Below the pieces are notes generated by a model that saw only the letters and a list, made by a program, of their open reading frames with translations, searched no databases and was not told the origin of the DNA. Source: a virus (taxonomy: Duplodnaviria; Caudoviricetes). Taken from it: 54,565 nucleotides of DNA. Below, piece after piece: positions 12,231 through 53,699 of the stretch; position 1 is the first letter of the stretch, and the number at the start of each line of letters is the position of its first letter. The translations under genes and the position numbers were made by a program. The stretch covers positions 1-54,565 of IMG/VR virus record IMGVR_UViG_3300017910_000855; one strand, 5' to 3'.

Positions 12231-12267
12231 AAGGGGGAGTGTCTTCAAAGACACTCCTACCTTTTTT
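12231..12267 (+). terminator. Intrinsic terminator after the capsid gene; its stem-loop is palindrome copy 2
   Basis: GGAGTGTCT-TCAA-AGACACTCC hairpin followed by TACCTTTTTT. Confidence 0.8.
12239..12254 (+). repeat. 16-bp palindrome copy 2 (intergenic)
   Basis: GTGTCTTCAAAGACAC. Confidence 0.97.
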
Positions 12268-12293
12268 ATTGTTTAAAATTAAATCGATTAAAA

Positions 12294-24000: not shown

Positions 24001-24772
24001 AAACTGTAACTGTAAAGGATTCAGCAAAGCTGACGGAAACGCTTGTCAATATAAACTTGAAGTAACTCGAATCAACGCAGGTACTTCTTTAGCTCCCGGA
24101 TTGAGCACAACAGAAATTATGGACTCACAATGTCAAACAGGACAACCGGATGCCGGATGGAACGAGTGGCGAGTTGCGGAATTTATCCAATACAGAGACG
24201 TAGTTTGGAGTGGAGAAGAAGCATTTGAAGTAACAGGCTTTGTTGATGCAAGTACACCGACAACTAAGGACCTTACATTTTGGAATAAAGAGATAACAGT
24301 TAATGATGTATGTAATACTTATACAATTAGCAACAGCACAGGTAGTCCACAATCCTTTAGTTATATTGACTGTGGCACAAATACTGAAGTAACTGATACA
24401 ATAGGACCGATTGGAACATTCAAAGTATGTGCTAAACAATTCACATCTTTGCCAAACGGAGTGGGTGCTGAACTTTCAGATGAATGTTGTAGTGCATTTT
24501 TTGGTACAGTAGACTTGTGTAAAATGTATAGATTACGAAACCAAACCTCAAGTCCTATAACTGTAGAGTGGAAAGATTGTGACGGAAATAATCAAACCTA
24601 TACTTTTGGTCAATTTGGTCAAGTTACTGTCTGTGCGAAAGAAATTGTTGCTCTTAATGGAGCAACACAACAAATACAAAGTTGTAATGGGTGTGATGAT
24701 ACGTTGCAGGTTCAAGAGTATTATGGAAGTTGTAATAATTGTCGTCAACCTAATAGTCAACCACCGGTTTAA
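15002..24772 (+). CDS. Tail stabilisation/'muzzle' protein (P22 gp10-like N-terminal part) with a long Cys-rich repeat extension
   Basis: MNKSLDERLLPNGQYVDALNVR start, LFFTDDLNPPRVIN, RLYDNVPRLAQAQTIMGNRLMYGDY, GISFHPES..FFTDAKRGAV; about 13 Cys-rich repeats from ~19628. Confidence 0.8.
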   Translation: MANVQRNFIKGVMNKSLDERLLPNGQYVDALNVRLGSTEDSEIGSVENSKGNSKLTSLEYNGNVVGQTGQAKCIGAYEDGANETLYWFVHDPDFQSSPTNKIDLIVSLNVQTNVLTYHVISVDDGGGINTTLNFNDTYLITGVNLVDNTLLFFTDDLNPPRVINVTKNYPNPVALVDGFTPNSILVIKKPPLNSPNVVAQPTSSQNNFLEDRFVCFAYRYKYADGEYSATSQFSNPAFLPGAFDYSFATGLNEGMLNLANQATIEYNSGDDLVVGIDLLWKDNATGLIRVIEKLDKSVLGLINNTNYTYTFSNSKVFTVLPDSEILRLYDNVPRLAQAQTIMGNRLMYGDYLEQYNLVSKSGFPLNLDYTVEKISNDVGLSELEDELTTGNYLINGNQTADNAIITFKDIGLLDLKAGAAIDFTIVFEHFAFTGQAPFPQQTTGQSEINFQYVLPQDFASAFELANSVDFIEKIGTITNIEPVATACDGSTFTDLFNCIIPQTLDTLEKYESGIDAVGEPIRIISSPGSDDIGFQLPAMSFVDDPTGAAITQTVYEYYSIISSQGTFQELGDPKSLHSNRSYEIGIIYMDEFNRATTALVSDTNTIHVPCSDSELANSIRVTIPPTQQAPEWARRYKFCIKANKENYFNVYSSFFFRDPTTSADYFLLEGQNSRKVEEGDILTVKADTNGPLRRCANATVLEKKSQPADFLGNEDDGAPPLDPSGAIIPIPAGVYMKLRANEFSTTVPELPTVNFGEKSSKGSGCRIVHYPVQIEDPSTPGTYIDYTIPAGSRIRIVIDNYRRGNTDKLFGGVSKKIWFVDADFTASQDYPNFVDWFNGDNVALALQQQGSDEGTGVSGPNYNPVLDGGLLSCETGRISCVFETPAASGQPQNTFTVKSSKGYSGSNKNARLKVRIEVLRSTSFIAFETEPQDAQPDVWFESSKSYEIAQANSCVFTFNASGAETGPIQFDYTDLAGLPASVILQPGTNQEVVGECGSASINPSTPASQPTTVITSATQAEGTHLGNVQNQTTTDPAIIDTAFFNCYSFGNGVESYVIRDAIAKNEVALGNRVTSTSAQDYQEIRRFSDITYSGVFNDESNVNKLNEFNLGLLNFKSLEETYGPIYLIDGRETDILVLQEDKISYVLTGKNLLSDSTGGGSVSSVPEVLGTQIARIEEYGISFHPESYAKWGANKFFTDAKRGAVIQLKGSSAQNEQLTVISEAGMRSWFRDLFSSSFNTQKLGGFDPYMNEYVLSSNTEFVPEIVECIDCGISRTVIATSTQDVNFCVNVGALVGDSIVTYNVIGANQDTFDISATYDGTTVTSGPTGVSGSLTVVKDDIAVDEVEIQVTSTGSTQLEITVECPFAQEITIIQVCYSLDADAGEFIHNEYRWADGAFNSPLQSEQVELVSGISNPLISQYSQVTGPQGGGFIPADGATISIISNRIPPIDDYVFDPAVDELRYLRTNTFFANTPNDMAALLAASNNATPITGGPNQFEAQFTMPSTNDEYLYLIYNYRRATEVQLCAGTSIFSVCCECTEENLIVRQCRQDFPAVSNQYVIPQTAGLVPGVFVTIDQADSDCVFEVITTTIESVNAAVTSVRNDITDCDEVCQQYIITNNSTTSTLGATYVDCDDDDVSFALQPLQSETVCAKVFNITPGPGIDYSISLQNCECQTPEPPNNFDVRQCRLDGVVVNEVVSGIPGVQTGSFVTLTSPADCVYEVFGTTGQQPSASINQLLNITSCTDVCQQYSVFNNSPDQSHVLDFINCDDEGDQVTIGIGQTVVLCMKDIIGTPSTELDITLDNCLCNQNFYDAQLCEISAVTDVPLNVDPLVVVADPTNQLAIGYHVFINGCAYEIQATSSGPATATYSSFSASFNCNDACNTYEIDNVTAFTWTLNYKDCNGVSQTENISPGTTIDRCISEWTGGQPAGVVIRHKSCGCNLDQNLVLRKCRQDGVITEVIAPNDTGAIVVGDFVVIASDPDCPYEVVNVTFDSPNATIQGSLSITDCSDVCQTYTLENTTNSVRAVEYKDCNGVTQGASIDPFGTLTICLTEMVTDPNIDWLDINLVSCTCLNIRVQQCRLDGVVEQEVLTNTLNASVGDFISIDADPNCAWEVIELTTDGVTGPDAVALLNINDCTEVCQTYTLTNVGTGIISVNYLDCDNNSQTIGVEVGIPQTICAKDITNVPDITVALTDCTCTIVPNEKWLIQLCLDSVLFPSGGITAIIEAPSGLLSVGDFVSIQNFNPQPPQPNNADCAWQVIGSSESNPTETFKNKLSITDCTDNCVTYVVTLAQGAQPVTIEYIDCDGNTQTNTLVSGQPQNNYMCLKSVVSISGDTNNIDASLYNCGCLSKKQLRLCEGGTTSNPVPTQNLVVDDPTFAIDIGDIVIANDGTYECSYTAIDYAPELTPVTGTVSSVDKTGDCADYCRVYRVFEQSGGTQSVTFRDCSNSSLIITFNYTNTGSNPLFICAREIINYSGSPSIRVEECDCDNTWLLRICRPPNTGNATGSPDTIYGEGATNNLNITTGDVVNVGGCAYNVIAQMKDQNTTPVTIDSIAAVSDCDGVCVEMEITNISGSTTSSQNYVDCNGVTQNTGSIAPGDSLTVCMAGGQGGWVPSLNTSVFSADVVGCSCSIVPTYRAEIVNTATFYGGGIAPNNYTLNPVVDSYYVYDTQNQLAINDFIDIGGLMYEITQTEPPMSNPPLPLQFPPPAGTFTKLTGVSASDACAQYLVKWLTSGTFSYVDCNGNNGGMSRAAGTEAIICMRTVNPSTSASFTIDLYGRGDCNTGITEIRQASLCNLGNQTPDPTAFPSSIFNIRFDNSLGKYQTGDQVWVGDYKYNVGGTTVTNPTDLSYVTDFQPNNCESGCATYSVRMTSGSDLLSYIGCNGDTEAITVTTTPQTICAQSFNSAFPPLMQVTMTQPCCGYGYDTGTNTAAVCKEIMVTRIQNTYPYGAVYARDCNLGNLVTLPISAQGFYDRSKGCISQITGINGSVRIQTINCNCKGFSKADGNACQYKLEVTRINAGTSLAPGLSTTEIMDSQCQTGQPDAGWNEWRVAEFIQYRDVVWSGEEAFEVTGFVDASTPTTKDLTFWNKEITVNDVCNTYTISNSTGSPQSFSYIDCGTNTEVTDTIGPIGTFKVCAKQFTSLPNGVGAELSDECCSAFFGTVDLCKMYRLRNQTSSPITVEWKDCDGNNQTYTFGQFGQVTVCAKEIVALNGATQQIQSCNGCDDTLQVQEYYGSCNNCRQPNSQPPV
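19628..24772 (+). repeat. Tandem protein-level Cys-rich repeats (~125-150 aa units, about 13 copies of the core module)
   Basis: Recurrent pattern xRxC...GDFV...C.YEV...DC..VC..Y...N....Y.DC.G....I.P....IC....C.C. Confidence 0.9.
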
Positions 24773-35800: not shown

Positions 35801-38800
35801 ACCTAATGTTATTGGTAGAAGAAGAGTTAAATCTTTTGCAGACATTCGTCAAAAAGCACAGGAGTTAATTCAAGACCATCCTATATATAAAGAACAAAAC
35901 GAACAAGTTCAGATGGAACTTCGTAGTGGTTTAGACAGGTCTCTTGGTTATAGAGGAAATAAAAATGTATCTCAAGAGATAGGAAAAATAAGAGAGGCAC
36001 TAAAGCAAAGAAGAGTAGGAGCAAAAAATTTAAAAGACGCACAGTTGCGTTTAAAGAATTTTATCAGAGCCAACTTACCTAAGTCTAAAAACTACAGTCA
36101 AGCACAGATAAACAGATTAATAAACACTGTAGCCAATACTAACTTAGATAACTTTCAAGCTCAAACCGAAAAGGTTTTGAAGATTGTTGAGCAGCAAAGA
36201 GCTAAGATAAAACGTGATGTTATTGCTGATATAGTTAAAACAGTAAAAGCAAAAGCACGACCAAGAAAACAATCAGGTAAGCCAAGACCGAAGGGTATTG
36301 ATGCGATAGGACAAGTAGTATTTGCTAACATTAAAACTGTAATGGATGCAGTTAGCATAACCAATCCTGAAGCAAGAGCTCAGGCATTACAAGATATTAA
36401 AGATAAGTTAGATGCGAATCGTATTGTAATTGACAACGCTATTCAGAAGCAGATAAACAATGAAGAACTGACTCTGCAGGAGGAAAGTTTGATGCAATTA
36501 CAGTTGGCTTATGACCAATTCTCTGACCTTGATACTGCATCTTTGGAGGTAGCACAAGCACTACTTGAAGATGTAAAGCAGCAAAAAGCTGAATCAATTT
36601 TGCGTTTTAACAACAGAAGACTGCAAAAAGCTGCAAGAGCCGAAGCAGTAGCAGAAGAAGCTACCAATCAAATTAAAGAAACTAATGCAGATTTATTTAA
36701 TGAAGATGGTAGTTTAAAGGATAGTAATGAGCTTAATGAAGATAGAGATGCTATTCAAAAAGACTTCACTGCTCGTGGTATTGTAAAGAAAGTGTTCTTA
36801 AAAATAAGAGACAATATATTTGGTAGAGCACAAAGCAAGATTACTAACTTTAAAAATCTACTTACGCATTTAGGTACGGTCACAAACTTTTTAGATAGAA
36901 AAAACAAAGGACTAAATATATTCCGTGACAAAGTATATCGTAAACTAAATAGAATGGAAGAGGTCGCACTTCAGAATATGAGAGTGATGCGACAAAAGGT
37001 AGATGAGATTGCAAGTGAAGCCGGGATTGAAGGTGGTTTCATAGGGGTAGAGAGTTTAGTAAACAGAGCTTTAGGTACAAGTAAAACAGGTGTGCCTAAT
37101 ACTAAAACATTAAATTTAGTTACAACTAAAACAGGTAGAAAATACAAGTCTGAGTTCAACGCAAATCAATTGCTTAGAATATATGCATTAAGTAAGAACC
37201 CTGTTCAACGTGCAAAATTAGAAGCACAAGGAATCACAGATGCGGTGTTAGCTGATATTGCTACAGACTTGGGTCCTGAACTTACTTCGTTTGCAGACAA
37301 GATGGTTGACTATCTAAGTACAGATTACTTCAATCAAACCAATTCAGTTTACAAACAAGTGAACGGAGTTAACTTAGGATTTGTAGAGAACTATTTCCCA
37401 ACTAAAACTATTGCAGCTAAAGTAGATGCTAAGATGTTGGAAGACGGAGACTTCAATGGTATCTTCTCTGCCGAAACTGCACCTGCATTTAAAGACAGGG
37501 TAGACTACGGTAGTGATGTTAATTTAAAAGAAGGAACATTTACAAATGTATTGATGAACCATATGGAAACTATGGAGCGATACAAAGCGATGGCTGCAGG
37601 TGTTCAAGAGCTGAACTCCTTCTTTAATATACCTGCAGTTAATACATTGCTTGATGTATCAGGAACTAAGACATTAGTAAAAACATTAGTTAATGCAACA
37701 GTTAATCCTCAATCGGCTGCCAAAGCAGACGGTGTGAGCAGTGGTGTATTAGAATGGTTTCAGAGAAAGTTTACTTCTTTTGCATTAGCATTCAAAGTAA
37801 TTCAAATTGCAAAACAGGCAACATCTTTTGTCAATGCATTTGAGCAATATAGTTACTTACCTAAAGACAGTAAAGTTCCAAAAGTATTACAAGGACCGCT
37901 TGACCTTATGATGTTTACTGTAGACGGTGCAGGTGTCTTGTTTGATATGGCAAAAGACCTTGTAGGTTTGGATGGAGCAATATCAAAAGCTCGTAAGATG
38001 TCAGCTCAGTTTGACCAACGTGTACGTGAAGGTTTAGAGGGAGATGTGTATGGACTTGAAACCGGTAGCCAAACATTTAAACAAGCCGGTAAAGGAACAG
38101 GTTTGTACAGAAGATTTGTGGATGGATTTAAAAGACTCTCTTCACGACCAACTATCATCGGAGATATAATGGGAGTGATGGGTTATTATATAAACTACAA
38201 ACGTAATATCGCTAATGGTATGAGTGAGGCACAGGCATTGGAGGAGTTCAATGATTACAATGCCACTCAGCAAACAAGAAGAGCAACAGAAAAAATTCCG
38301 TTACAATTGAAAGGAGACTTTGCTTCTAAAGGATTTACAATGTTTGGTAGTACATTATTCTTGCAAATAAACAAAGTAATGTCAAGTGCAACCAACATAA
38401 TGAGAGCGTTGGGTAGCGGAAAAGTTCCAAGCAAACAAGATATACGAGGATTCTATTTAAACTTTGCAGTTGCCAACATATTGTTTACAGGTATGTCAAA
38501 CATTGCACTTCTTACACGTGGAGATAGTGAAGACAGAGATGCGTTCTATCGTAAATTAAAAGATGCGATGATGGGATTGAACTTAATGTATCAGATTCCT
38601 TATTTGGGTGCAGCAATTGAGAAAGGTATAAACACATATAGAGGAGATAGAAAACCTGTTAGTGATGTTACTAATCCATTTGCATCTATTCAAAGTAAGA
38701 TACAGAAAAACTTTAGAGATAATCCTGACTCAGCATTTAAGAATACCATATTGCCTTTAATTGAAATCGCTATGGGTGCACAAGTGGACCCATTCATTGG

Positions 38801-39116
38801 GATGTTCAATGCAAGTAAAGATATACTAAAAGGAGATATGAGTTCAGAAGAGTATTACAATAATGTATACGACTTCTTAGGTATCACTCCATCATATAGA
38901 CCGGGATATGGACAGAAAGGTTCTTCAGTCAAAGGTATCATTCCACAAGGAGGTATTAAAACAAAGACAGACCTGAAGCGTTACGACCCTGAGTTGTATG
39001 AACAGGTGTATGGAGAGAGAGATAGAATTAAAAAGGAACAAAAAGAATTAAGAAAACAAGCACTTCAAGACTTGGGTTACAAAGAAGTAGGAGGTAAACT
39101 TTATCCTATTGAGTAG
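29826..39116 (+). CDS. Giant internal virion/polyvalent protein with zincin-like HExxH motif
   Basis: 3096 aa, no Cys seen; Gly-rich hydrophobic segment GIATGAGIGATG...GGAWG; SIHEMGHVW at 35136-35150. Confidence 0.75.
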   Translation: MNEEYLQELYNYLGQNDESFSAEVDFATFTSDMQDQQYAAQIYNYLGGLDDTFKMEVNVNQFFEDIGAVKKKDEPKQSGDLPSEDGSSESVEIEEVDFNTLKTPNPNEVIGRDTRAADYVDPMTMVGMYPDQNTLDLARAQQAADFKFTAQLVQQDEPELTEIQAQEEAERAVNIETETTGREEVIQTQEFNDALSKTNVEAIQMEEGEAVPYFNDMYSQYGFVFRPIGLGDAMEVTTVLADGSVAKEEIDLDPFTTKGAETESQKLKAFVQKYAKKPEEAREEAESNFAQAALKAKYLRNTPRINADGTESTVMFQSAVIDGKNVVYPTLFPINPNLSTTNPEYWTELDGMEAYEEAVKRGEVFNFGTAEEADEFAAGSWKDYNSIDAEGNRFFDERGYDYLEVRNQFDEYERARDVSFFIEDRLKEGRQQFGFGDKKELKNLTPEEQEKYGYLYTENGLLRADLEQILEREQKIVDELQEIYTDDDLQEVREDFDVFIDKQFQQLSQEASLSNASAKYIQNELEANSFAEFGVGIEELYNYIPDDVEGAQMRDAILTSYQASKDVQQLAADKYEVGQTFLDGKFDEELRGEIVENYAGMQQQITEGLNRGKAGNEILKIALGLEDVDDEESTAQIAQRIVDFMEASNTGKTSRAMSRWHSARGFREAWDAFSDNPAELALSFAANSISQMLPYGTKIIGISTGSGIATGAGIGATGFVTGPGGVLTTGGGAIAGGAWGLRTGFAATSLALEYTNAVMEAMTNNGYDVLNSNDVAIALSDENVWAEGRERGLKRGIPIAMVDMLSSGLAGRVFKVGKTASRGRRLGVQVGERLVFDPIAEATGELAAQINVGDEIDYKEIFAEAIGGIGNNAPFAALNMALDVRAQNNTNIANDLTTIAGINREVGGIFKPTPTRVSNWANNMERLGQISKETNQRIQLNLGLRQDALNVLETTQGKVDGDVLNRTMELLAAKQELESTPNRKQVFASKIKEINTELAELAETKKVRPSVSTATNQQIEQGNTFQQGFQTNVAGIGLVEQTSDTDIRETAQSKYTINGKSLTRRKFLNRINDMSPKQLKAANITIDNDEQVTDILTEKFGTDAIQEQETGSVSPNQRTGDIQSLEEAVRTVQQEQTTEPETTQEGTVVTEEQTVEEQPDVTPQPAVVPQSLVRPTRADVTAFDNNTIDEARLDRILAGIADKQIANKKLTVFQQRVAENNQARIDEIVSSKTLTDEVADLEATLQTPKGKVDFKSESKFVPDTDEVSQITKTINESQSGNVFTDLEETTDESASINVDELNQRTDNDIQSIEDLSIVKGIPVVFTISDQLTTGPVTNELTGNTIDNLRGGLGFTGTEGNQNAAWANTTEAEAGTIIEKATQVYEANKPTFEEFWAANPEYNGHVPMPVVKMGEGSILSNEATFRVFKDNLSKIPEANRKKALDELVSNLQARIDARQATIDKGQASELTIRNYKKEVAGLQELIKLINESDAKLLDDVVSTEFIQQLSLPTRRSFIERLTFGQPNRARTSKKPSKGQKKIPNILIEGMDTDAVNLVHLATITDLITEPQLKDVPQRSIIALQAVDVLNPEVIKSVHPNYPFGVKGKTIGVLQNPQSIVSVYPEAYQNAIRGLVAEEGKGKVVTEGQRKRATIEERKSMPKAGELAPSSVGTILTETLGVQNGLPNTEFIGAISQGNVDNATKLTAFMNIAFPQTNITTDRATFDTVMEQENVQKYKKGDQIIYGVTVDGDIYINPDVHNSESALFNTSIHEMGHVWTDYLQTTKKGKAIYAKGVNLVKQTQEYQRQLKKFDGNEAKAANETIAILIGNKGQTIADASLKSKFQQWLLGMWNYIKSQFTQTQDLTAEQIQDLTLDEFIGSALADIFAGKQIKLTDSQLKKMKNPEAAFSSEMSITAIVERGRENGFSDASIREVLRGRGFAAADINEAMTYQVDLFNELPSEFRRVEGGILRAAKLFNDVNVALQKFATSGRPNVIGRRRVKSFADIRQKAQELIQDHPIYKEQNEQVQMELRSGLDRSLGYRGNKNVSQEIGKIREALKQRRVGAKNLKDAQLRLKNFIRANLPKSKNYSQAQINRLINTVANTNLDNFQAQTEKVLKIVEQQRAKIKRDVIADIVKTVKAKARPRKQSGKPRPKGIDAIGQVVFANIKTVMDAVSITNPEARAQALQDIKDKLDANRIVIDNAIQKQINNEELTLQEESLMQLQLAYDQFSDLDTASLEVAQALLEDVKQQKAESILRFNNRRLQKAARAEAVAEEATNQIKETNADLFNEDGSLKDSNELNEDRDAIQKDFTARGIVKKVFLKIRDNIFGRAQSKITNFKNLLTHLGTVTNFLDRKNKGLNIFRDKVYRKLNRMEEVALQNMRVMRQKVDEIASEAGIEGGFIGVESLVNRALGTSKTGVPNTKTLNLVTTKTGRKYKSEFNANQLLRIYALSKNPVQRAKLEAQGITDAVLADIATDLGPELTSFADKMVDYLSTDYFNQTNSVYKQVNGVNLGFVENYFPTKTIAAKVDAKMLEDGDFNGIFSAETAPAFKDRVDYGSDVNLKEGTFTNVLMNHMETMERYKAMAAGVQELNSFFNIPAVNTLLDVSGTKTLVKTLVNATVNPQSAAKADGVSSGVLEWFQRKFTSFALAFKVIQIAKQATSFVNAFEQYSYLPKDSKVPKVLQGPLDLMMFTVDGAGVLFDMAKDLVGLDGAISKARKMSAQFDQRVREGLEGDVYGLETGSQTFKQAGKGTGLYRRFVDGFKRLSSRPTIIGDIMGVMGYYINYKRNIANGMSEAQALEEFNDYNATQQTRRATEKIPLQLKGDFASKGFTMFGSTLFLQINKVMSSATNIMRALGSGKVPSKQDIRGFYLNFAVANILFTGMSNIALLTRGDSEDRDAFYRKLKDAMMGLNLMYQIPYLGAAIEKGINTYRGDRKPVSDVTNPFASIQSKIQKNFRDNPDSAFKNTILPLIEIAMGAQVDPFIGMFNASKDILKGDMSSEEYYNNVYDFLGITPSYRPGYGQKGSSVKGIIPQGGIKTKTDLKRYDPELYEQVYGERDRIKKEQKELRKQALQDLGYKEVGGKLYPIE
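33510..33525 (+). repeat. 16-bp palindrome copy 4 (in giant gene, read as VSSKT)
   Basis: TAGTGTCTTCAAAGACACTA. Confidence 0.97.
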
Positions 39117-39131
39117 TGTCTTCAAAGACAC
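39116..39131 (+). repeat. 16-bp palindrome copy 5 (convergence point of the two arms)
   Basis: TAG-TGTCTTCAAAGACA-CTA, 39114-39133; both ends are the stop codons of the convergent genes. Confidence 0.97.
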
Positions 39132-40114: not shown

Positions 40115-40364
40115 TGCTCTTTACATCTCTTTCGTCATCCATTGCACCGAGAAACTGTTTCCCCATACTTGGATTTATTTTCTTAATAAGGTTATAGATT
40201 CGTCTTGAGTTTTTTCTGACCGTTTCCTTTTCGGATTTATTAGAGTCAATACCAAGATTGGTATACATAGCACAGTCAATGCGTAAAAGCTCGTCAATTT
40301 TTTGACGGTCTTTCCAAGACTTGAACTCGTAGACTTTCTCTATGTCGTCAATCTTATACACCAT
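40107..40364 (-). CDS. Hypothetical protein
   Basis: 85 aa; KIDELLRIDCAMYTNLGIDS; operon packing. Confidence 0.7.
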   Translation of the reverse strand: MVYKIDDIEKVYEFKSWKDRQKIDELLRIDCAMYTNLGIDSNKSEKETVRKNSRRIYNLIKKINPSMGKQFLGAMDDERDVKSNE

Positions 40365-40878
40365 TTAATACACTGTTTAGTTTACGCTTGAACTTGTTTA
40401 GTTTTTCTTCATTCAAGTTCCGTTCTTCGATTATGTCGTACAGATAATCATACTTTTGATAACTTTTTAGACTATCTTTCAACCGTTCTACTAACAAATT
40501 TAAACTTTTATTTTGGTTTTCCAAATCATTTATAGATACAAGTAGCTCTTGTCTTGTGGAAAACTTATGAGGAGAGTTGCTTCTTTCGTCAAAAAAAAGC
40601 TGCCTAATCAAGTAATAATCTTCACGTAACTCTTTGTCTATATCGAACAAATCCTCGAAGAGATTAAGTCCGTGCATTATAGTTGCGTGGTTTTTATTTA
40701 AACTTCTTGCGATAGCAGTGTAGCTATATCTACATTCTGTTAACAATTTGTAGTATATCATTCGTGCGTTGATATACTCTTGCTTACGTGTTTTGTTTTC
40801 TACATCTACTGAAAGATACTCTTCAATTAATTTAGTTAGAGATTTTTTTATCTTGGGTTCTACGGTTTGTCTGTGCAT
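40354..40878 (-). CDS. DnaA C-terminal (domain IV)-like HTH protein with coiled-coil tail
   Basis: TRKQEYINARMIYYKL...YSYTAIARSLNKNHATIMHG matches the DnaA domain IV pattern. Confidence 0.75.
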   Translation of the reverse strand: MHRQTVEPKIKKSLTKLIEEYLSVDVENKTRKQEYINARMIYYKLLTECRYSYTAIARSLNKNHATIMHGLNLFEDLFDIDKELREDYYLIRQLFFDERSNSPHKFSTRQELLVSINDLENQNKSLNLLVERLKDSLKSYQKYDYLYDIIEERNLNEEKLNKFKRKLNSVLNGV

Positions 40879-41598: not shown

Positions 41599-42834
41599 TT
41601 AATACAAAGTTAGTAAATCCCTTTTAAAGTGAGTGACCGTGTAGTCTTTCTTCTTTATCACTGCTCTGTATATATCTTTTTCTATACCGTGCTTGGAGAA
41701 TATCCAATACACTTTACTGTTGACTCTATCCTTAGTAGTCATACGGTCTCGGCTTTGCCAATAGCTTGTGGCTGAGAAGTCTATGTTGTAGTAAACGATA
41801 GCGTCTGCTTCACGTAAGCTGATTCCTTCACGACCTGAAACAATTTGTAACGCAATGTTTTTATCCGTGTTACTAAACTCTTCAAGTGTGTTACAAAGTG
41901 TGTCTTTGAAGACACTCTTCAATGCTTTGTATTCTTCCCGAAACTTGTAGAAGATGGCTATCTTTTGGTTTCCAAAGTAATCTTTAATGAACTCTGCTTT
42001 GGTTCTGTCTATTGTTATCGAGTCTCCACTTTCAAATTTTACAGTGCCTGAATAAAGCTGATGTAACTTCTGCATAAGTTTAGCAGGAGTATCTCCAAGT
42101 ATAGTGTTATCATTACCCTCTACCACTCTATCTTTTTTCAACCTTTCTGCTAACACATATGTGGTGTTATTCATTTCCACCCACATTATCTCTTCATTTA
42201 TTTCGTTTTTAAAACCGGCTTCCTTTTGCGTGAAAGATATGGTGTATGGTTTCATTTCATCAAGTATCTTTTTCATACCTCTTGAATAATCATTTACATA
42301 ATTAGAATTAATTTTTCTTTGACGAACCTGAACATACTCACGAGCGAACTTGTAAAAGGAAGTGTGTTTACTGAATGGGTTAGATGGAATACCAAACACC
42401 TGATGATACATTTGACTGTAGCTCTCAGGTGTTGGTGTTCCTGACATCAAACATAAATACGGATTGTATTTCTTGACAATGTCTTTAATATCTTTAGCTC
42501 TCTTGCTTGGCTTGGGGAACGCACCAAGTGTGTGTGCTTCGTCTACAATTAGCATATCATAAGGAAGATTATCAATCTTATGAAGCGACTCGTAGTTAAT
42601 AACAGTTATGTTATATGATGGCTTCAATAAAAGAAAGTCTGATTCAATACTGCTTATGGCTTTCTTCTTTGTAACAAACAAAACTTCTTTACATCCTAAC
42701 ACTTGTGCAATGCCAAGACTCGTTAATGTTTTTCCTGTCCTTACTTCCATAGCGAGATAAACAAATCCTTTATCTTGGATTATCTCAGTTGCTTTATCTA
42801 TTATTTCCCATTGGTACTTTCTGTACTTGAACAT
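41599..42834 (-). CDS. Superfamily 2 (SNF2-like) helicase
   Basis: YQ motif, EVRTGKT (Walker A), LIVDEAH, SGTP, GREGISL, QSRDR. Confidence 0.9.
   Translation of the reverse strand: MFKYRKYQWEIIDKATEIIQDKGFVYLAMEVRTGKTLTSLGIAQVLGCKEVLFVTKKKAISSIESDFLLLKPSYNITVINYESLHKIDNLPYDMLIVDEAHTLGAFPKPSKRAKDIKDIVKKYNPYLCLMSGTPTPESYSQMYHQVFGIPSNPFSKHTSFYKFAREYVQVRQRKINSNYVNDYSRGMKKILDEMKPYTISFTQKEAGFKNEINEEIMWVEMNNTTYVLAERLKKDRVVEGNDNTILGDTPAKLMQKLHQLYSGTVKFESGDSITIDRTKAEFIKDYFGNQKIAIFYKFREEYKALKSVFKDTLCNTLEEFSNTDKNIALQIVSGREGISLREADAIVYYNIDFSATSYWQSRDRMTTKDRVNSKVYWIFSKHGIEKDIYRAVIKKKDYTVTHFKRDLLTLY
41900..41915 (-). repeat. 16-bp palindrome copy 6 (in helicase, read as VFKDT)
   Basis: GTGTCTTTGAAGACAC on + strand. 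Confidence 0.97.
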
Positions 42835-50666: not shown

Positions 50667-50717
50667 TCTGTTTCTGTCTTTTGACTTCATCAGCACGGAC
50701 ACACATCCGTGAACAGA
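50667..50717 (-). ncRNA. Hammerhead ribozyme, type III, variant (HH-B)
   Basis: Minus strand UCUG-U-U^-CACGGA[UGUGUG]UCCGUG-CUGAUGA-AGUC[AAAA]GACA-GAAA-CAGA; core intact; GUU triplet and A-A mismatch at the base of stem II. Confidence 0.8.
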
Positions 50718-50720
50718 GCA

Positions 50721-50736
50721 GTGTCTTTGAAGACAC
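50721..50736 (-). repeat. 16-bp palindrome copy 12 (intergenic, abutting ribozyme HH-B)
   Basis: GCAGTGTCTTTGAAGACACTGC, 50718-50739. Confidence 0.97.
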
Positions 50737-50747
50737 TGCCTTGCGGT

Positions 50748-51824
50748 TTAGGAGAAACGTAGCACCTCTTCTTGCCCAAACCAAGTATCACATCCATTGC
50801 AGTGATAGTTATTGAAACCGTCAAACTCCAAGTCGTGACAACAGTCAACACAAATAGGATTGTCGTTTGGATTGTAGTCGTCAGCAGACATATCATCAAA
50901 CAAATCAACCTGTGTGCAAGGTGGTGTGTCGTCAACAAAGTCAACTGTATCAACCCAACGTCTTGTTGGTGTAACAACCCTTTGGTAGTCTTTGATATGA
51001 TTACTACCATTCCATTCCTTTTCCTCTTGTGGATTGAAGTATATCCAAGCAGTGATGGTTTTGTTCTTCATCTTGATAGGTATCTGCTTTCTGCAGTACC
51101 ATTGTGGGTGTCCTTCCAATCCGTCTAACCTACGTAGAGTATCGTCTGATACTTTGAACACGTCTACAACTACGTTGTGACCTTTCCCTTTCTTCTCAAT
51201 CAGAAATGGGATACCACGTGATACCATTGGGTACTTGTCTTTGGTCTCGCCTTTTCCAAGATGCTTTGAATTAGTTAGGTAAGTGTAGTAGTTACCAAAC
51301 CCTTTCTTTAGTGTACCATACACCGCCACAACATTGCTTTGCAATACGTTGGTTTTCGAATACCATACTCCGTCTTTCAATGTATACAAATGCTTGTTGA
51401 AGATTTGAAACGAACGAGTACGGGTATTGATTGCCACGAAACGAGCATCGAACTTTGCCAACGATTGTTTCCAAGTGTGACGAGGAGAACGACCCAACTT
51501 GATAGCCAAGTCTTCTGTGTCTGTCATATTTTTGTTGCCGTAGCCACGAACGGTGCCGTTCATCATAAGCAACTCGTCTTTGTTGTTACCGCAGACGAAT
51601 GGGTGTGTGTTTTCCTTACAGATTTTACCAACCGTTGCATACCTGAAGTGTGCAATGTATGGTCTGTCGTTGTCCAACACACCGAACTCTTTTGATTGAT
51701 GATAGCTGACCTCGAACGTGTCGAGCCATACGATTCCCAATCCGTGAGGATTGATACGTGATGAATTTTTAAGTATCTCACGTGATACTGATTTACCTTT
51801 TTGTTTGATAATAATAATACACAT
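50748..51824 (-). CDS. Class II glutamine amidotransferase fused to gamma-glutamylcyclotransferase (AIG2-like) and a C-terminal Zn ribbon
   Basis: True start M-C-I-I (Ntn nucleophile Cys2) at 51824; NPHGLG, HFRYAT, HPF, NG, TDTE; VAVYGTLKKG, LDGLEGHP.WY.R; CVDC...CNGC. Confidence 0.9.
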   Translation of the reverse strand: MCIIIIKQKGKSVSREILKNSSRINPHGLGIVWLDTFEVSYHQSKEFGVLDNDRPYIAHFRYATVGKICKENTHPFVCGNNKDELLMMNGTVRGYGNKNMTDTEDLAIKLGRSPRHTWKQSLAKFDARFVAINTRTRSFQIFNKHLYTLKDGVWYSKTNVLQSNVVAVYGTLKKGFGNYYTYLTNSKHLGKGETKDKYPMVSRGIPFLIEKKGKGHNVVVDVFKVSDDTLRRLDGLEGHPQWYCRKQIPIKMKNKTITAWIYFNPQEEKEWNGSNHIKDYQRVVTPTRRWVDTVDFVDDTPPCTQVDLFDDMSADDYNPNDNPICVDCCHDLEFDGFNNYHCNGCDTWFGQEEVLRFS

Positions 51825-51844
51825 AGTGTTTGGTTTTGTGAGCA

Positions 51845-51860
51845 GTGTCTTTGAAGACAC
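51845..51860 (-). repeat. 16-bp palindrome copy 13 (5' leader between promoter and GATase start)
   Basis: GTGTCTTTGAAGACAC on + strand. Confidence 0.97.
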
Positions 51861-51888
51861 AGAACTCTGATTTAACATTTGATTTAAA

Positions 51889-51920: not shown

Positions 51921-52082
51921 TTACCTACTGACAACTGCAGTAAATTTATTTCTGACTATCCATTTGTACGTGCCTACATTTTCATTGTAGATTTTGTCAA
52001 TGGCTTCCCATTTCGTGTGAGCAGGTACAACTTTGATTAGCTTACCTGCATACCTTACTTTAAAATATCTCATCGCTTCCAT
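51921..52082 (-). CDS. Small hypothetical protein (53 aa, absent from ORF track)
   Basis: MEAMRYFKVRYAGKLIKVVPAHTKWEAIDKIYNENVGTYKWIVRNKFTAVVSR*; TAATG coupling. Confidence 0.7.
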   Translation of the reverse strand: MEAMRYFKVRYAGKLIKVVPAHTKWEAIDKIYNENVGTYKWIVRNKFTAVVSR

Positions 52083-52249
52083 TACAATTCAAATAATTCA
52101 TCAAGCAAGTAACCTTTGGTTCTGTTGATGTAGTTAATAAAATTGTCGCAATGATTCTTGTCGTTGAACTCTTTGGTCACGACCCACTCGCCACGATTAT
52201 TTCCGTACGAGACTTGTCCTGTCTTGAAGACTAATTGAACTTTGTACAT
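52082..52249 (-). CDS. Small hypothetical early protein
   Basis: Likely start MYKVQL at 52249 after an A-rich leader; the longer ORF-track start overlaps the ribozyme. Confidence 0.7.
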   Translation of the reverse strand: MYKVQLVFKTGQVSYGNNRGEWVVTKEFNDKNHCDNFINYINRTKGYLLDELFEL

Positions 52250-52268
52250 AACTTTTAATTTAATGTTT

Positions 52269-52330
52269 GACATAGAGGTAGTGTCTTTGAAGACACCACC
52301 TTTCGGGTATTCAACCCTCATCAGTATGCC
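52269..52330 (-). ncRNA. Hammerhead ribozyme, type I (HH-C); stem III is the 16-bp palindrome
   Basis: Minus strand GGCAUA-CUGAUGA-GGGU[UGAAU]ACCC-GAAA-GGUGGUGUCU[UCAA]AGACACUACC-U-C^-UAUGUC; all three stems pair, canonical core, CUC triplet. Confidence 0.88.
52281..52296 (-). repeat. 16-bp palindrome copy 14 (inside ribozyme HH-C)
   Basis: GTGTCTTTGAAGACAC on + strand. Confidence 0.97.
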
Positions 52331-52548
52331 TATACTCGGTCTGCTTTCCAACCTTGATAGATTAGTGAAAAGATAACTCCACTAATGAACAACAAGAACA
52401 TTCCAACGAACCCTACATACACCCACTGATACCACACAAAAGTATGTTGTGATATGATGTGAATGAATAAACGTAGCACCATTGATAGAACTCCGATGGC
52501 AACGATTGTTGTTACTGACTTTTCGATTGTGTTAACTAAATTTCTCAT
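52330..52548 (-). CDS. Small two-TM membrane protein flanked by ribozymes
   Basis: Likely start MRNLVN at 52548 (72 aa); two hydrophobic helices. Confidence 0.7.
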   Translation of the reverse strand: MRNLVNTIEKSVTTIVAIGVLSMVLRLFIHIISQHTFVWYQWVYVGFVGMFLLFISGVIFSLIYQGWKADRV

Positions 52549-52575
52549 AATGTTTGATATTAAAATTATTTGTTT

Positions 52576-52626
52576 CCTGTTTCGACCTTTTGGTCTCATC
52601 AGCACAAGCACTCACTTGTGGACAGG
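52576..52626 (-). ncRNA. Hammerhead ribozyme, type III (HH-A)
   Basis: Minus strand CCUG-U-C^-CACAAG[UGAGUG]CUUGUG-CUGAUGA-GACC[AAAA]GGUC-GAAA-CAGG; fully canonical core, GUC triplet, G10.1-C11.1. Confidence 0.93.
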
Positions 52627-52647
52627 GGGAGCATTCGCTCCCTCTCA

Positions 52648-53683: not shown

Positions 53684-53699
53684 GTGTCTTTGAAGACAC
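53684..53699 (-). repeat. 16-bp palindrome copy 15 (intergenic, 16 nt before amidoligase start)
   Basis: GTGTCTTTGAAGACAC on + strand. Confidence 0.97.

What the first reader, a model, noticed from the sequence alone, without database searches (positions are those of the whole stretch)
52269..52330. Type I hammerhead whose stem III is the genome-wide palindrome
Seen: after GAAA the RNA reads GGUG-GUGUCU[UCAA]AGACAC-UACC-UC, so the 16-mer forms the apical part of stem III. Stem I is GGCAUA/UAUGUC, and the ribozyme begins at the stop codon of the upstream gene. Cleavage would leave a 25-nt A/U-rich leader before AUG 52249, with an alternative in-frame AUG 1 nt from the new 5' end. Inference: either the palindrome works as an RNA hairpin tag whose binding protein could modulate cleavage (a natural protein-responsive ribozyme), or a DNA operator has been placed where a hairpin is tolerated.
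Basis: partly seen in the sequence, partly recalled or inferred. Interest (0 to 1): 0.9.

Follow-up and report, generated by a model that had tools for sequence, protein, structure and literature searches.

The report
Hammerhead ribozyme capped by phage-wide hairpin
A genuine self-cutting hammerhead RNA lies between two early genes of an uncultured marine phage, and one of its helices is a copy of a 16-letter hairpin that this phage family repeats along its genomes and places just before ribozyme cut sites, probably to cap the end of the cut message.

Summary
Window 52330-52269 (minus strand) is a complete type I hammerhead with a canonical core. The apex of its 11-bp stem III is one of 14 exact copies of GTGTCTTCAAAGACAC.

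The placement is not coincidental. Four related phage contigs carry the same type I ribozyme with a palindrome in stem III. One of them (G002) uses that phage's own variant.

A GTGTC-N6-GACAC hairpin ends 5-14 nt before the scissile bond in 108 of 117 distinct type III modules found in IMG/VR. Where it is missing, a generic GC hairpin usually replaces it (12 of 18).

Next to ribozymes the loop always reads UCAA on the RNA sense strand (62 to 0), and the stem is lengthened by its flanks. This favours an RNA hairpin that stays at the 3' end of the upstream cleavage product.

A protein-gated ribozyme is not supported. A DNA operator remains a live rival: a ribozyme-free relative has 14 perfect palindromes, copies lie inside genes, and the arms are invariant.

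This scan noted the hairpin-then-hammerhead layout before on other phage DNA. I found no description of it in print.

The parts
52269..52330 (-). Type I hammerhead ribozyme, 62 nt. Stem I 5' strand 52330-52325; CUGAUGA 52324-52318; stem II hairpin 52317-52305; GAA 52304-52302; stem III hairpin 52301-52276; C17 52275; stem I 3' strand 52274-52269.
   Evidence: Direct reading. The minimum-energy fold equals the hammerhead junction. Own descriptor against shuffles. Relatives keep all pairs through compensatory changes.
52281..52296 (-). Copy of the family-wide 16-nt quasi-palindrome GUGUCU-UCAA-AGACAC. It forms the apical 6 bp and the loop of stem III.
   Evidence: 15 and 14 copies; 0 in shuffles and in the control. 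Same element in stem III of four related ribozymes.
52274..52275 (-). Predicted scissile bond, after C17 (52275) and before U1.1 (52274). The palindrome ends 6 nt upstream of it.
   Evidence: Position follows from the hammerhead core. Cleavage itself is not shown.
52330..52599 (-). Upstream small hydrophobic-protein ORF. Its TAG stop (52332-52330) overlaps the first G of the ribozyme.
   Evidence: The C-terminus WK(A/E)DR(V/A)* is conserved in G001 and L042, and the stop abuts the ribozyme in all five lineages.
52082..52273 (-). Downstream gene. The likely start is AUG 52249, 25 nt after the cut. An in-frame AUG at 52273-52271 lies inside the stem I 3' strand, 1 nt after the cut.
52576..52642 (-). 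Type III hammerhead (52626-52576) preceded by an unrelated hairpin GGGAGC-GAAU-GCUCCC (52642-52627). The G001 orthologue has the palindrome at this position.
   Evidence: RF00008 gave 21.5 bits against a cut-off of 48.5, misaligned.
50667..50740 (-). Palindrome (50736-50721, lengthened by GGCA/UGCU) abutting a type III hammerhead (50717-50667). The cleavage site is GUU, and the pair at 10.1-11.1 is A-A.
53684..53699 (-). Dispersed palindrome copy, 3 nt after the TAA stop of the upstream gene and 16 nt before AUG 53667.
51845..51860 (-). Dispersed palindrome copy, 20 nt (A/C-rich) before the MCIII... start (ATG 51824) of the GATase-II/GGCT gene.
12233..12270 (+). Palindrome copy (12239-12254) forming the apex of a longer hairpin followed by a U run. 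It looks like a terminator and lies after the 496-aa virion structural gene.
   Evidence: Reading of the flanks only.
39116..39131 (.). Palindrome copy at the point where the + and - gene arms converge.

Best explanation
This is a real cis-cleaving type I hammerhead. It is one of three hammerheads within 2 kb of the leftward early operon of an uncultured ~55-kb marine podovirus, probably of Flavobacteriia.

Inferred mechanism:
1. As the operon is transcribed, the RNA cuts itself after C52275.
2. The upstream message (small membrane-protein gene) keeps the whole ribozyme. It ends in the 11-bp stem III hairpin plus C with a 2',3'-cyclic phosphate.
3. The downstream message starts with a 5'-OH, 25 nt before AUG 52249.

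The palindrome is in stem III because this phage family places a stable hairpin 5-14 nt 5' of every hammerhead scissile bond.
- In type III units that hairpin lies just outside the ribozyme, abutting stem III.
- In the type I topology the only helix at that position is stem III itself, so the palindrome becomes its cap.
- The slot is filled either by the family palindrome or by a generic GC-rich hairpin.

The role at ribozymes is therefore an RNA-level structural one: a 3'-end cap for the upstream product, and possibly a stacking partner for stem III. The palindrome's sequence-specific role, read by an unknown factor, is added on top of this.

Shown: the motif, its conservation and covariation, the geometry, and the polarity. 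Inferred: cleavage, the protective role, and the existence of a reader.
For: (1) The core and helices are canonical. No type I hit of comparable quality occurred in 300 shuffles.

(2) In 13 type I relatives, 156 of 156 cells are paired and 10 of 12 pairs show compensatory changes, against 28-40% paired when the partners are slid. The pattern scan did not demand stems I or II. Its four true relatives (L042, L044, L046, L047) still have them, with stem II GGGU/ACCC changed to GUUC/GAAC or GACC/GGUC.

(3) In the nine related genomes, searched without reference to the palindrome, I found 18 hammerheads in 8 genomes.
- Nine have an exact GTGTC-N6-GACAC just 5' of the cut, three of them inside stem III of a type I ribozyme.
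- All 8 of 8 type III copies have a hairpin ending 0-1 nt before the stem III strand: six exact palindromes, one wobble-degenerate palindrome, one generic.

(4) IMG/VR holds 103 stretches with a palindrome followed by a hammerhead core.
- In the 85 loci held, 134 of 153 type III hammerheads have the palindrome within 80 nt of the cut.
- Of 117 distinct modules, 108 have it 5-14 nt from the cut.

(5) Of 18 distinct type III copies without it, 12 have another hairpin of -12.9 to -19.6 kcal/mol ending at the same position.

(6) Polarity, on unique contexts:
- Next to hammerheads the loop reads UCAA on the coding strand in 62 cases and UUGA in 0, with 13 ambiguous.
- Among distinct modules the centres are TCAA 71, TTAA 17, TCGA 4 and TTGA 2.

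(7) Palindromes next to hammerheads are lengthened by 3 or more flanking pairs in 56 of 69 cases. Dispersed copies have no extension in 117 of 163.

(8) All 15 type I relatives have a stem I of exactly 6 bp, an A before it and AA after it. The 13 aligned in A2 also share a 4-bp stem II with a 5-nt U...U loop. This fits a tertiary contact typical of natural hammerheads.
Against: - No experiment or read data show cleavage.
- Rfam's hammerhead models do not reach threshold.
- In a 201-nt context the minimum-energy fold lacks stem I.
- The covariation set was collected with a descriptor that demands pairing, so 100% paired is partly by construction.
- The orientation counts are not phylogenetically independent.
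- The cap model does not explain the exact conservation of the 16-mer.
- It does not explain copies inside genes in three frames.
- It does not explain dispersed copies without flank pairing, or their 16-23 nt spacing to start codons.
- A relative has 14 palindromes and no hammerhead, so the palindrome has a function independent of ribozymes.
Confidence: 0.6

Rival explanations
1. DNA operator or stoperator-like site. The palindrome is read in double-stranded DNA by a phage protein, probably a symmetric dimer, at many sites. It sits in stem III only because the apex of an obligatory RNA hairpin is one of the few intergenic places where a 16-bp palindrome costs nothing.
For: - The arms GTGTC/GACAC are invariant, and single-mismatch variants occur almost only at pair 6/11.
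- G002 has variable centres, with C.A as frequent as U.G on the sense strand (4 against 4).
- Some lineages have perfect palindromes: centre TTAA in G003, G004 and G008, and 14 copies of GTGTCGTTAACGACAC in MW202828.1, which has no hammerhead by pattern.
- Copies lie inside genes in all frames, and the helicase copy has opposite centre polarity in G000 and G001.
- 117 of 163 dispersed copies have no flank pairing, more than the control value of 89.
- A DnaA-C-type helix-turn-helix protein is encoded at 40354-40878.
Against: - A symmetric DNA reader predicts equal TCAA and TTGA. Observed: 62 to 0 next to hammerheads and 103 to 30 elsewhere.
- U.G exceeds C.A, 28 to 13.
- At G002 10668 the hairpin is kept only through two G.U wobbles.
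- Generic hairpins replace the palindrome at the same position.
- The distance to the scissile bond is fixed.
- The helix-turn-helix protein has no match in G003, which does have palindromes.
Confidence: 0.22
2. Protein-gated ribozyme. A protein that binds the hairpin tag switches cleavage of this hammerhead on or off.
For: RNA-level features of the palindrome next to ribozymes. The exact sequence conservation implies a specific reader.
Against: - In 117 distinct type III modules the tag lies outside the catalytic fold.
- Type I relatives of the same architecture use ordinary 5-9 bp stems III.
- The tag here sits 5 bp away from the core on an 11-bp helix that folds without help.
- There is no candidate RNA-binding protein: Pfam and PHROGs gave no RNA-binding family for the 27 window proteins scanned; the shortest ORFs of the early block were not scanned.
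Confidence: 0.1
3. Cistron-boundary tag. The palindrome marks the 5' edge of each translation-initiation region and directs a protein-dependent event there, either an endonucleolytic cut or ribosome loading. Hammerheads provide a protein-independent cut at the same place.
For: - Of 154 dispersed copies, 67 have an ATG opening an ORF of 40 or more codons within 60 nt (control 224 of 739). Forty-nine of the 67 lie 16-23 nt away, with a mode of 22.
- In MW202828.1 five copies start exactly 3 nt after an annotated stop and are followed by A/C-rich leaders and ATG.
- The distance from palindrome to ribozyme cut (mode 11) falls inside that leader.
Against: More than half of the dispersed copies (87 of 154) have no such start nearby. 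No nuclease candidate was identified. Copies at the convergence point (39116) and in a terminator-like hairpin (12239) lie at gene ends, not at starts.
Confidence: 0.12
4. Chance. A hammerhead-like string happens to overlap one palindrome copy.
For: None beyond the failure of the Rfam models.
Against: Zero of 300 shuffles at comparable stringency. The element is conserved with compensatory changes. The same arrangement occurs in four other contigs, including a lineage-specific palindrome variant.
Confidence: 0.01

Closest known systems
Clustered cis-acting hammerheads flanking single genes in prophage and phage operons (Perreault et al. 2011, PMC3088659; passages read)
   Same: Several hammerheads of mixed types lie within ~2 kb and flank individual small genes of a phage transcript. 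The proposed role is processing of a long RNA into single-gene messages. The core is canonical.
   Different: The passages I read do not mention a hairpin fixed 5' of the cut, or a genome-wide palindrome built into or abutting the ribozyme. Their supplements were not available to me.
Rfam Hammerhead_1 (RF00163, type I) and Hammerhead_3 (RF00008)
   Same: Same catalytic core, the same three helices, and the type I topology (stem I open).
   Different: Scores are far below the gathering thresholds. RF00163 gave no match on the element. RF00008 gave 21.5 bits against 48.5 on the neighbouring type III. I have not tested why; the 26-nt stem III hairpin is my guess.
Stoperators of Cluster A mycobacteriophages (abstract of PMC9283540 seen; L5 details recalled)
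   Same: A short exact motif repeated at many sites across a phage genome. It is mostly co-oriented with transcription and lies in short intergenic gaps and sometimes inside genes.
   Different: Stoperators are asymmetric 13-mers bound by a monomeric immunity repressor of temperate phages. This element is a quasi-palindrome. I found no integrase or repressor among the proteins scanned. The element is geometrically coupled to ribozyme cut sites.
Start-associated sequences (SAS/ESAS) of Cluster K mycobacteriophages (PMC3203893, passages read)
   Same: 11-19 oriented copies per genome, confined mostly to the non-structural half. They lie at a fixed short distance upstream of start codons, upstream of unrelated genes. 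Their function is unknown.
   Different: SAS is a 13-bp asymmetric motif 3-7 bp from the start and contains a Shine-Dalgarno core. This element is a 16-nt hairpin 16-23 nt from the start, and it is linked to ribozymes.
Engineered ribozyme-plus-hairpin insulators such as RiboJ, and protein-responsive hammerheads with a protein-binding hairpin grafted on a stem (recalled, no call)
   Same: A hammerhead combined with a defined hairpin gives a transcript a context-independent end. A stem apex is used as a docking site.
   Different: Those are synthetic. In RiboJ the hairpin follows the cut, whereas here it precedes it.

Membership tests
Hammerhead ribozyme | Core nucleotides C3 U4 G5 A6 N7 G8 A9, G12 A13 A14, A15.1, U16.1, H17 (criteria of Perreault et al. 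2011, seen) | tested here: met
   CUGAUGA at 52324-52318, GAA at 52304-52302, A52301, U52276, C52275.
Hammerhead ribozyme | Standard pairs directly adjacent to the core (1.1-2.1, 10.1-11.1, 15.1-16.1) | tested here: met
   U52274-A52325, G52317-C52305, A52301-U52276. G-C at 10.1-11.1 and A-U at 15.1-16.1 are invariant in 13 of 13 relatives.
Hammerhead ribozyme | Three helices around the core, supported by covariation | tested here: met
   The minimum-energy fold equals the junction. 156 of 156 cells are paired, and 10 of 12 pairs have changes on both sides. Caveat: the sequences were collected with a pairing-dependent descriptor, apart from the four found by the pattern.
Hammerhead ribozyme | Type I topology (stem I open, stems II and III closed) | tested here: met
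   Order of elements.
Hammerhead ribozyme | Tertiary contact between stem I and loop II, or a pseudoknot | tested here: inconclusive
   All 15 type I relatives have a stem I of exactly 6 bp with a conserved A before and AA after. The 13 aligned in A2 have a 4-bp stem II with a 5-nt U...U loop. These fit a contact, but I could not define a pairing scheme.
Hammerhead ribozyme | Score above the Rfam gathering threshold (RF00163 or RF00008) | tested here: not met
   I read this as a limit of the models, because every sequence-defined criterion is met.
Hammerhead ribozyme | Site-specific self-cleavage giving a 2',3'-cyclic phosphate and a 5'-OH | not testable with these tools
   The RNA-run contigs were uninformative.
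Stoperator-like DNA operators | Many dispersed copies of one exact motif, mostly co-oriented with transcription | tested here: met
   14 exact copies. 103 sense to 30 antisense away from ribozymes.
Stoperator-like DNA operators | Bound by a phage repressor that blocks elongation; temperate life style | not testable with these tools
   No integrase or repressor family among the proteins scanned. One DnaA-C helix-turn-helix protein was found. Binding was not tested.
Start-associated sequences (SAS-like) | Fixed short distance to downstream start codons of unrelated genes | tested here: inconclusive
   49 of 154 dispersed copies lie 16-23 nt before an ATG that opens an ORF of 40 or more codons. 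87 of 154 have no such start within 60 nt.

The most novel reading that the evidence does not exclude
The 16-nt hairpin is an RNA tag of a hybrid system that punctuates messages. A conserved, still unidentified factor reads GUGUC...GACAC hairpins at cistron boundaries.

In ribozyme-free relatives the factor itself defines the RNA ends or the loading of ribosomes. In this lineage hammerheads make the cut next to the tag. The type I form, with the tag as stem III, is the most compact fusion.

Binding of the factor could then decide whether the cut message is kept, translated or degraded. In the type I form it could also gate cleavage, which would make it a natural protein-responsive ribozyme.
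Probability: 0.15. Interest if true: 0.85.

Novelty: new variant of a known kind. Interest (0 to 1): 0.6.

Why it matters
Thousands of bacterial and phage hammerheads have been known since 2011, but their biological role is still open. This phage family offers a rule that can be tested: a stable hairpin, often one exact family-wide 16-mer, lies 5-14 nt before every cut. The rule holds in two different ribozyme topologies, which points to the 3' end of the upstream product as the thing under selection.

The type I case shows that a ribozyme helix can also carry a sequence-specific genomic element. That is the arrangement needed for natural cross-talk between a protein and a ribozyme.

The units are also compact natural insulators between cistrons in hosts that do not use Shine-Dalgarno sequences. 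That host trait is inferred from the leaders seen here.

Tried and rejected
Rfam. A gathering scan of the whole window and E<=10 scans of two sub-regions gave no usable hammerhead call for the type I element. I relied on direct reading, my own descriptor and comparative data instead.

Public RNA runs. The 3.4-kb stretch is held almost fully by many seawater DNA runs. Only 6-9% of its sampled words are held by four RNA-labelled runs. Laying those four gave contigs only, mostly from 95-99% relatives. One relative's contig runs across the type I cut site, and one exact contig spans the 50717-50667 hammerhead. Contigs cannot show ends, and DNA may be present in these libraries. This says nothing on cleavage.

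Virion RNA polymerase or hairpin-promoter idea (N4-like or crAss-like). The 3256-aa protein has a crAss muzzle-like N-terminus. Neither giant protein has a DFDxD-type motif. The phi14:2 study reports no common motif upstream of its early transcripts (passages). I dropped the idea.

Host-type promoter at the palindrome. The 16-23 nt gap to the ATG is A/C-rich. I saw no Bacteroidota -7 box there, by reading of the sequences; the box consensus is recalled. Judged unlikely.

It is present in G001, G002 and MW202828.1. It is absent at E<=1e-3 from Elemovirus, which has no palindrome, but also from G003, which has palindromes. The result is inconclusive.

AUG 52273 as the true start of a leaderless message. 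The AUG in the stem I 3' strand is conserved in 5 of 5 lineages. It is in frame with three unrelated downstream genes, but in L047 it is followed by a stop after 9 codons. I read the conserved UAUGUCAAACAU as part of the RNA module. A dual start is left open.

Cultured relatives. BLASTN with both ribozyme units found nothing relevant among 50,697 phage records. The nearest records by protein are a metagenomic podovirus (MW202828.1: 75% terminase, 71% primase) and Elemovirus at 41-46%. I therefore found no isolate for bench work.

Literature. Searches found no paper linking hammerheads with a genome-wide palindrome or with flavobacterial phages. The 16-mer string occurs in 0 papers of the held library. 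Subscription papers and supplements were not searched.

Rows dropped before counts:
- Two long-stem-II type I copies (G003a, G004a) and one 105-nt copy (L110) were left out of alignment A2 because they misaligned.
- The two 'type II' hits have minimal stems, and I treat them as chance.
- Sites with an ambiguous local coding strand are reported separately (13 and 34).
Full report
1. The observation.

On the minus strand, 52330-52269 reads GGCAUA-CUGAUGA-GGGU(UGAAU)ACCC-GAA-A GGUGGUGUCU(UCAA)AGACACUACC U-C^-UAUGUC. This is a complete type I hammerhead.
- The core is C3-A9 = CUGAUGA and G12-A14 = GAA, with an A15.1-U16.1 pair and C17.
- Stem I has 6 bp, stem II has 4 bp with a 5-nt loop, and stem III has 11 bp.
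- The criteria used by Perreault et al. 2011, core identity and no mispair next to the core (passage), are all met.
- The 70-nt minimum-energy structure is exactly this junction: -25.5 kcal/mol, z = -4.55, 0 of 200 shuffles as stable.
- My own type I descriptor finds one hit in the window. In 300 shuffles it finds 2 hits at the loosest setting and 0 at the two stricter settings.

The first G is the last base of the TAG stop 52332-52330. The cut lies between 52275 and 52274. A 25-nt leader runs to AUG 52249. An in-frame AUG lies 1 nt after the cut.

The 16-mer 52296-52281 forms the six apical pairs and the loop of stem III. GTGTCT-N4-AGACAC occurs 15 times in the window and never in 100 shuffles. 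Fourteen copies are exact.

Rfam does not call the element. It gives only 21.5 bits, misaligned, for the textbook-looking type III copy next door. I treat this as a limit of the models.

2. The setting.

The window is a whole IMG/VR virus record of 54,565 bp, about 90% complete.
- Genes run rightward from 790 to 39116: terminase, portal, virion proteins and two giant proteins, one with a crAss muzzle-like N-terminus.
- Genes run leftward from 54347 to 39131: small early genes, a GATase-II/GGCT fusion, primase and helicase.
- The nearest GenBank records by terminase are a metagenomic podovirus from a freshwater spring (75% identity) and phages of Flavobacterium, Cellulophaga, Tenacibaculum and Maribacter below 60%. 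The host is therefore probably a member of Flavobacteriia. This is an inference.

I confirmed both as type III, at 52626-52576 and 50717-50667. The second has a GUU site and an A-A at 10.1-11.1.

3. Relatives.

The 339-aa neighbouring protein recovered eight related contigs at 46-95% identity. All eight carry GTGTC-N6-GACAC repeats, 5 to 16 sites each, with 0 matches to the control pattern.

I searched the nine genomes for all three hammerhead topologies without using the palindrome. This gave 18 hammerheads in 8 genomes. The descriptor gives 9 hits per 100 shuffles at its loosest setting.

The type I ribozyme recurs with the identical 16-mer in stem III in G001, L042 and L047. In G002 it recurs with GTGTCCAGTAGGACAC. 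That sequence belongs to G002's own repeat family, which keeps the arms and lets the centre vary. Stem II differs between these lineages (GGGU/ACCC, GUUC/GAAC, GACC/GGUC) while pairing is kept.

In an alignment of 13 type I relatives, 156 of 156 cells pair and 10 of 12 pairs change on both sides. Slid controls pair in 28-40% of cells. Most of these sequences were found by a descriptor that requires pairing. The four found by the stem-blind pattern are the less biased evidence. The other six stretches were five copies of one coding sequence and one type III unit.

More distant type I relatives of the same build have ordinary 5-9 bp stems III without the palindrome (G003, G004, G008, L060, L068, L115).

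4. The wider rule.

In the nine genomes the palindrome lies just 5' of the scissile bond in 9 of 18 hammerheads. In three of them it is inside the stem III of a type I ribozyme. In six it is directly in front of a type III ribozyme.

All 8 of 8 type III copies have a hairpin ending 0-1 nt before the stem III strand. Six are exact palindromes. One (G002 10668) is a palindrome kept only through two G.U wobbles. One is the unrelated GGGAGC-GAAU-GCUCCC in front of the window's 52626 copy, where the G001 orthologue has the palindrome.

A scan of IMG/VR for palindrome, 20-45 nt, CTGATGA, 9-18 nt, GAAAC returned 103 stretches. By a rough calculation of mine, about two would be expected by chance.
- The 85 loci held (809,894 bases) contain 153 type III hammerheads.
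- 134 of them have the palindrome within 80 nt upstream of the cut.
- Of 117 distinct modules, 108 have it 5-14 nt from the cut, with a mode of 11. In the window's type I copy the distance is 6 nt.
- Of the 18 distinct type III copies without the palindrome, 12 carry another hairpin of -12.9 to -19.6 kcal/mol ending at the same position.

The common sub-arrangement in both topologies is therefore: hairpin, then the 16.x strand, then H17, then the cut. In type III the hairpin must be an extra element, because the ribozyme stays on the downstream product. In type I stem III is that hairpin.

This scan's earlier follow-ups on other phage genomes reached the same 'hairpin-then-hammerhead' layout (e1-6258751, e1-6217120, e1-6277076). 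My scan independently reproduces the 'over a hundred' figure.

5. RNA or DNA?

For an RNA reading next to ribozymes:
(a) The loop polarity is fixed. On unique contexts, 62 copies next to hammerheads read UCAA on the coding strand and 0 read UUGA, with 13 ambiguous. Among distinct modules the centres are TCAA 71, TTAA 17, TCGA 4 and TTGA 2. A symmetric reader of double-stranded DNA predicts equal numbers.
(b) Of 69 adjacent copies, 56 are lengthened by 3-8 flanking pairs.
(c) Generic hairpins substitute for the palindrome.
(d) U.G variants outnumber C.A variants 28 to 13, and the double change to C-G occurs 19 times.

For a DNA reading, or at least a sequence-specific reader:
- The five outer pairs never vary.
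- In G002, C.A and U.G are equally frequent on the sense strand.
- Dispersed copies mostly lack any flank pairing: 117 of 163, against 89 in the control.
- 30 of 133 dispersed copies with a clear strand are antisense.
- Copies lie inside genes in all three frames.
- The helicase copy has opposite polarity in G000 and G001.
- MW202828.1 has 14 perfect palindromes GTGTCGTTAACGACAC, all in its early region, and no hammerhead by pattern.

In MW202828.1 five copies begin exactly 3 nt after an annotated stop codon. They are followed by A/C-rich leaders and an ATG.

In the window's family, 49 of 154 dispersed copies lie 16-23 nt before an ATG that opens an ORF of 40 or more codons. This spacing recalls the start-associated sequences of Cluster K mycobacteriophages. 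The dispersal and orientation recall stoperators.

I conclude that the hairpin slot at ribozymes is an RNA-level requirement. The palindrome also has a sequence-specific role that does not depend on ribozymes, and its reader and form (RNA or DNA) are undetermined.

6. Mechanism, with its status.

Shown: the motif, its conservation, the geometry and the polarity.

Inferred:
- Self-cleavage after C52275 during transcription of the early operon.
- The upstream product ends in the 11-bp stem III plus C17 with a cyclic phosphate. From established knowledge of bacterial 3' exonucleases (recalled), such an end should resist degradation.
- The 6-bp A/U-rich stem I should let the products part.
- The downstream product begins with a 5'-OH and an unstructured 25-nt A/U-rich leader.

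The conserved A before stem I and AA after it (15 of 15 type I relatives), together with the U...U loop II of the 13 aligned relatives, suggest a tertiary contact. I could not define it.

The sequence after the cut, UAUGUCAAACAU, is conserved in front of three unrelated genes. In L047 it runs into a stop. I therefore assign it to the RNA module, not to the coding sequence. Translation from the AUG 1 nt after the cut remains possible.

7. Against, and limits.
- No cleavage data exist. The RNA-run contigs were uninformative.
- In a 201-nt context stem I is not in the minimum-energy fold.
- The counts of polarity and covariation are not corrected for shared descent.
- The large IMG/VR set was selected by a pattern that includes the palindrome. 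Only the nine-genome set is unbiased.
- I found no candidate RNA-binding protein. The one DNA-binding candidate correlates imperfectly with palindrome presence.

8. Novelty and verdict.

Clustered hammerheads around single phage genes have been known since 2011. This type I ribozyme is a new member of that kind.

The variant feature is the fixed coupling of a family-wide exact hairpin to the cut site, which in the type I form is built into stem III. In the library I could search I found no description of this. This scan has noted the type III form on other genomes.

Its 'not coincidental' inference is supported. Its protein-gated ribozyme is unsupported, and its DNA-operator alternative stays open. 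Interest 0.6.

Noticed in passing
window 52576-52642 and 50667-50740 (minus strand): Two type III hammerheads lie in the same 2-kb stretch. The first is preceded by an unrelated GC hairpin. The second is preceded by an extended palindrome and has a GUU site and an A-A at 10.1-11.1.
   Followed up: partly
window 12233-12270 (+): A palindrome copy forms the apex of a longer hairpin followed by a U run, just after the 496-aa virion structural gene. Here the same 16-mer is nested in what looks like an intrinsic terminator.
   Followed up: no
window 5059-5074; G001 11503; G002 50049; G005 20719; G006 12004; G007 9963: A palindrome copy lies inside the terminase gene at about the same codon (residue ~69-70) in six related genomes. 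In G002 the centre differs.
   Followed up: partly
window 41900-41915 against G001 38235-38250: The palindrome copy at residue ~306 of the helicase has opposite centre polarity in the two phages (TCAA against TTGA on the sense strand). The centre can therefore flip at dispersed sites.
   Followed up: no
MW202828.1 43745-55169 (L149): A freshwater relative has 14 perfect palindromes GTGTCGTTAACGACAC, all in its early region, and no hammerhead by pattern. Five start exactly 3 nt after an annotated stop. Two share an identical 19-nt A/C-rich leader before the ATG.
   Followed up: partly
window 52269-52274 and the equivalents in L046, L042, L047, L044: The stem I 3' strand contains an AUG 1 nt after the predicted cut in all five lineages. 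It is in frame with three unrelated downstream genes and is followed by a stop in L047. Cleavage could create a nearly leaderless message.
   Followed up: partly
Its neighbour 50748-51878 is a GATase-II/GGACT fusion whose likely start is the MC... at 51824.
   Followed up: no
window 40354-40878 (-): A 174-aa protein has a DnaA C-terminal helix-turn-helix domain (32.4 bits, cut-off 31.5). Homologues occur in G001, G002 and MW202828.1, but not in G003 or Elemovirus.
   Followed up: partly
window 15002-24772 (+): The 3256-aa virion protein has an N-terminus like the crAss-phage muzzle protein (PF25731, 46.8 bits). The neighbouring 3096-aa protein matches no family.
   Followed up: no
dispersed palindrome copies, flanking positions -1 and +1: The bases flanking dispersed copies pair less often than expected: 46 of 163 pair, against about 74 expected from the shuffled-partner control. 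It looks as if lengthening of the hairpin is avoided away from ribozymes.
   Followed up: no
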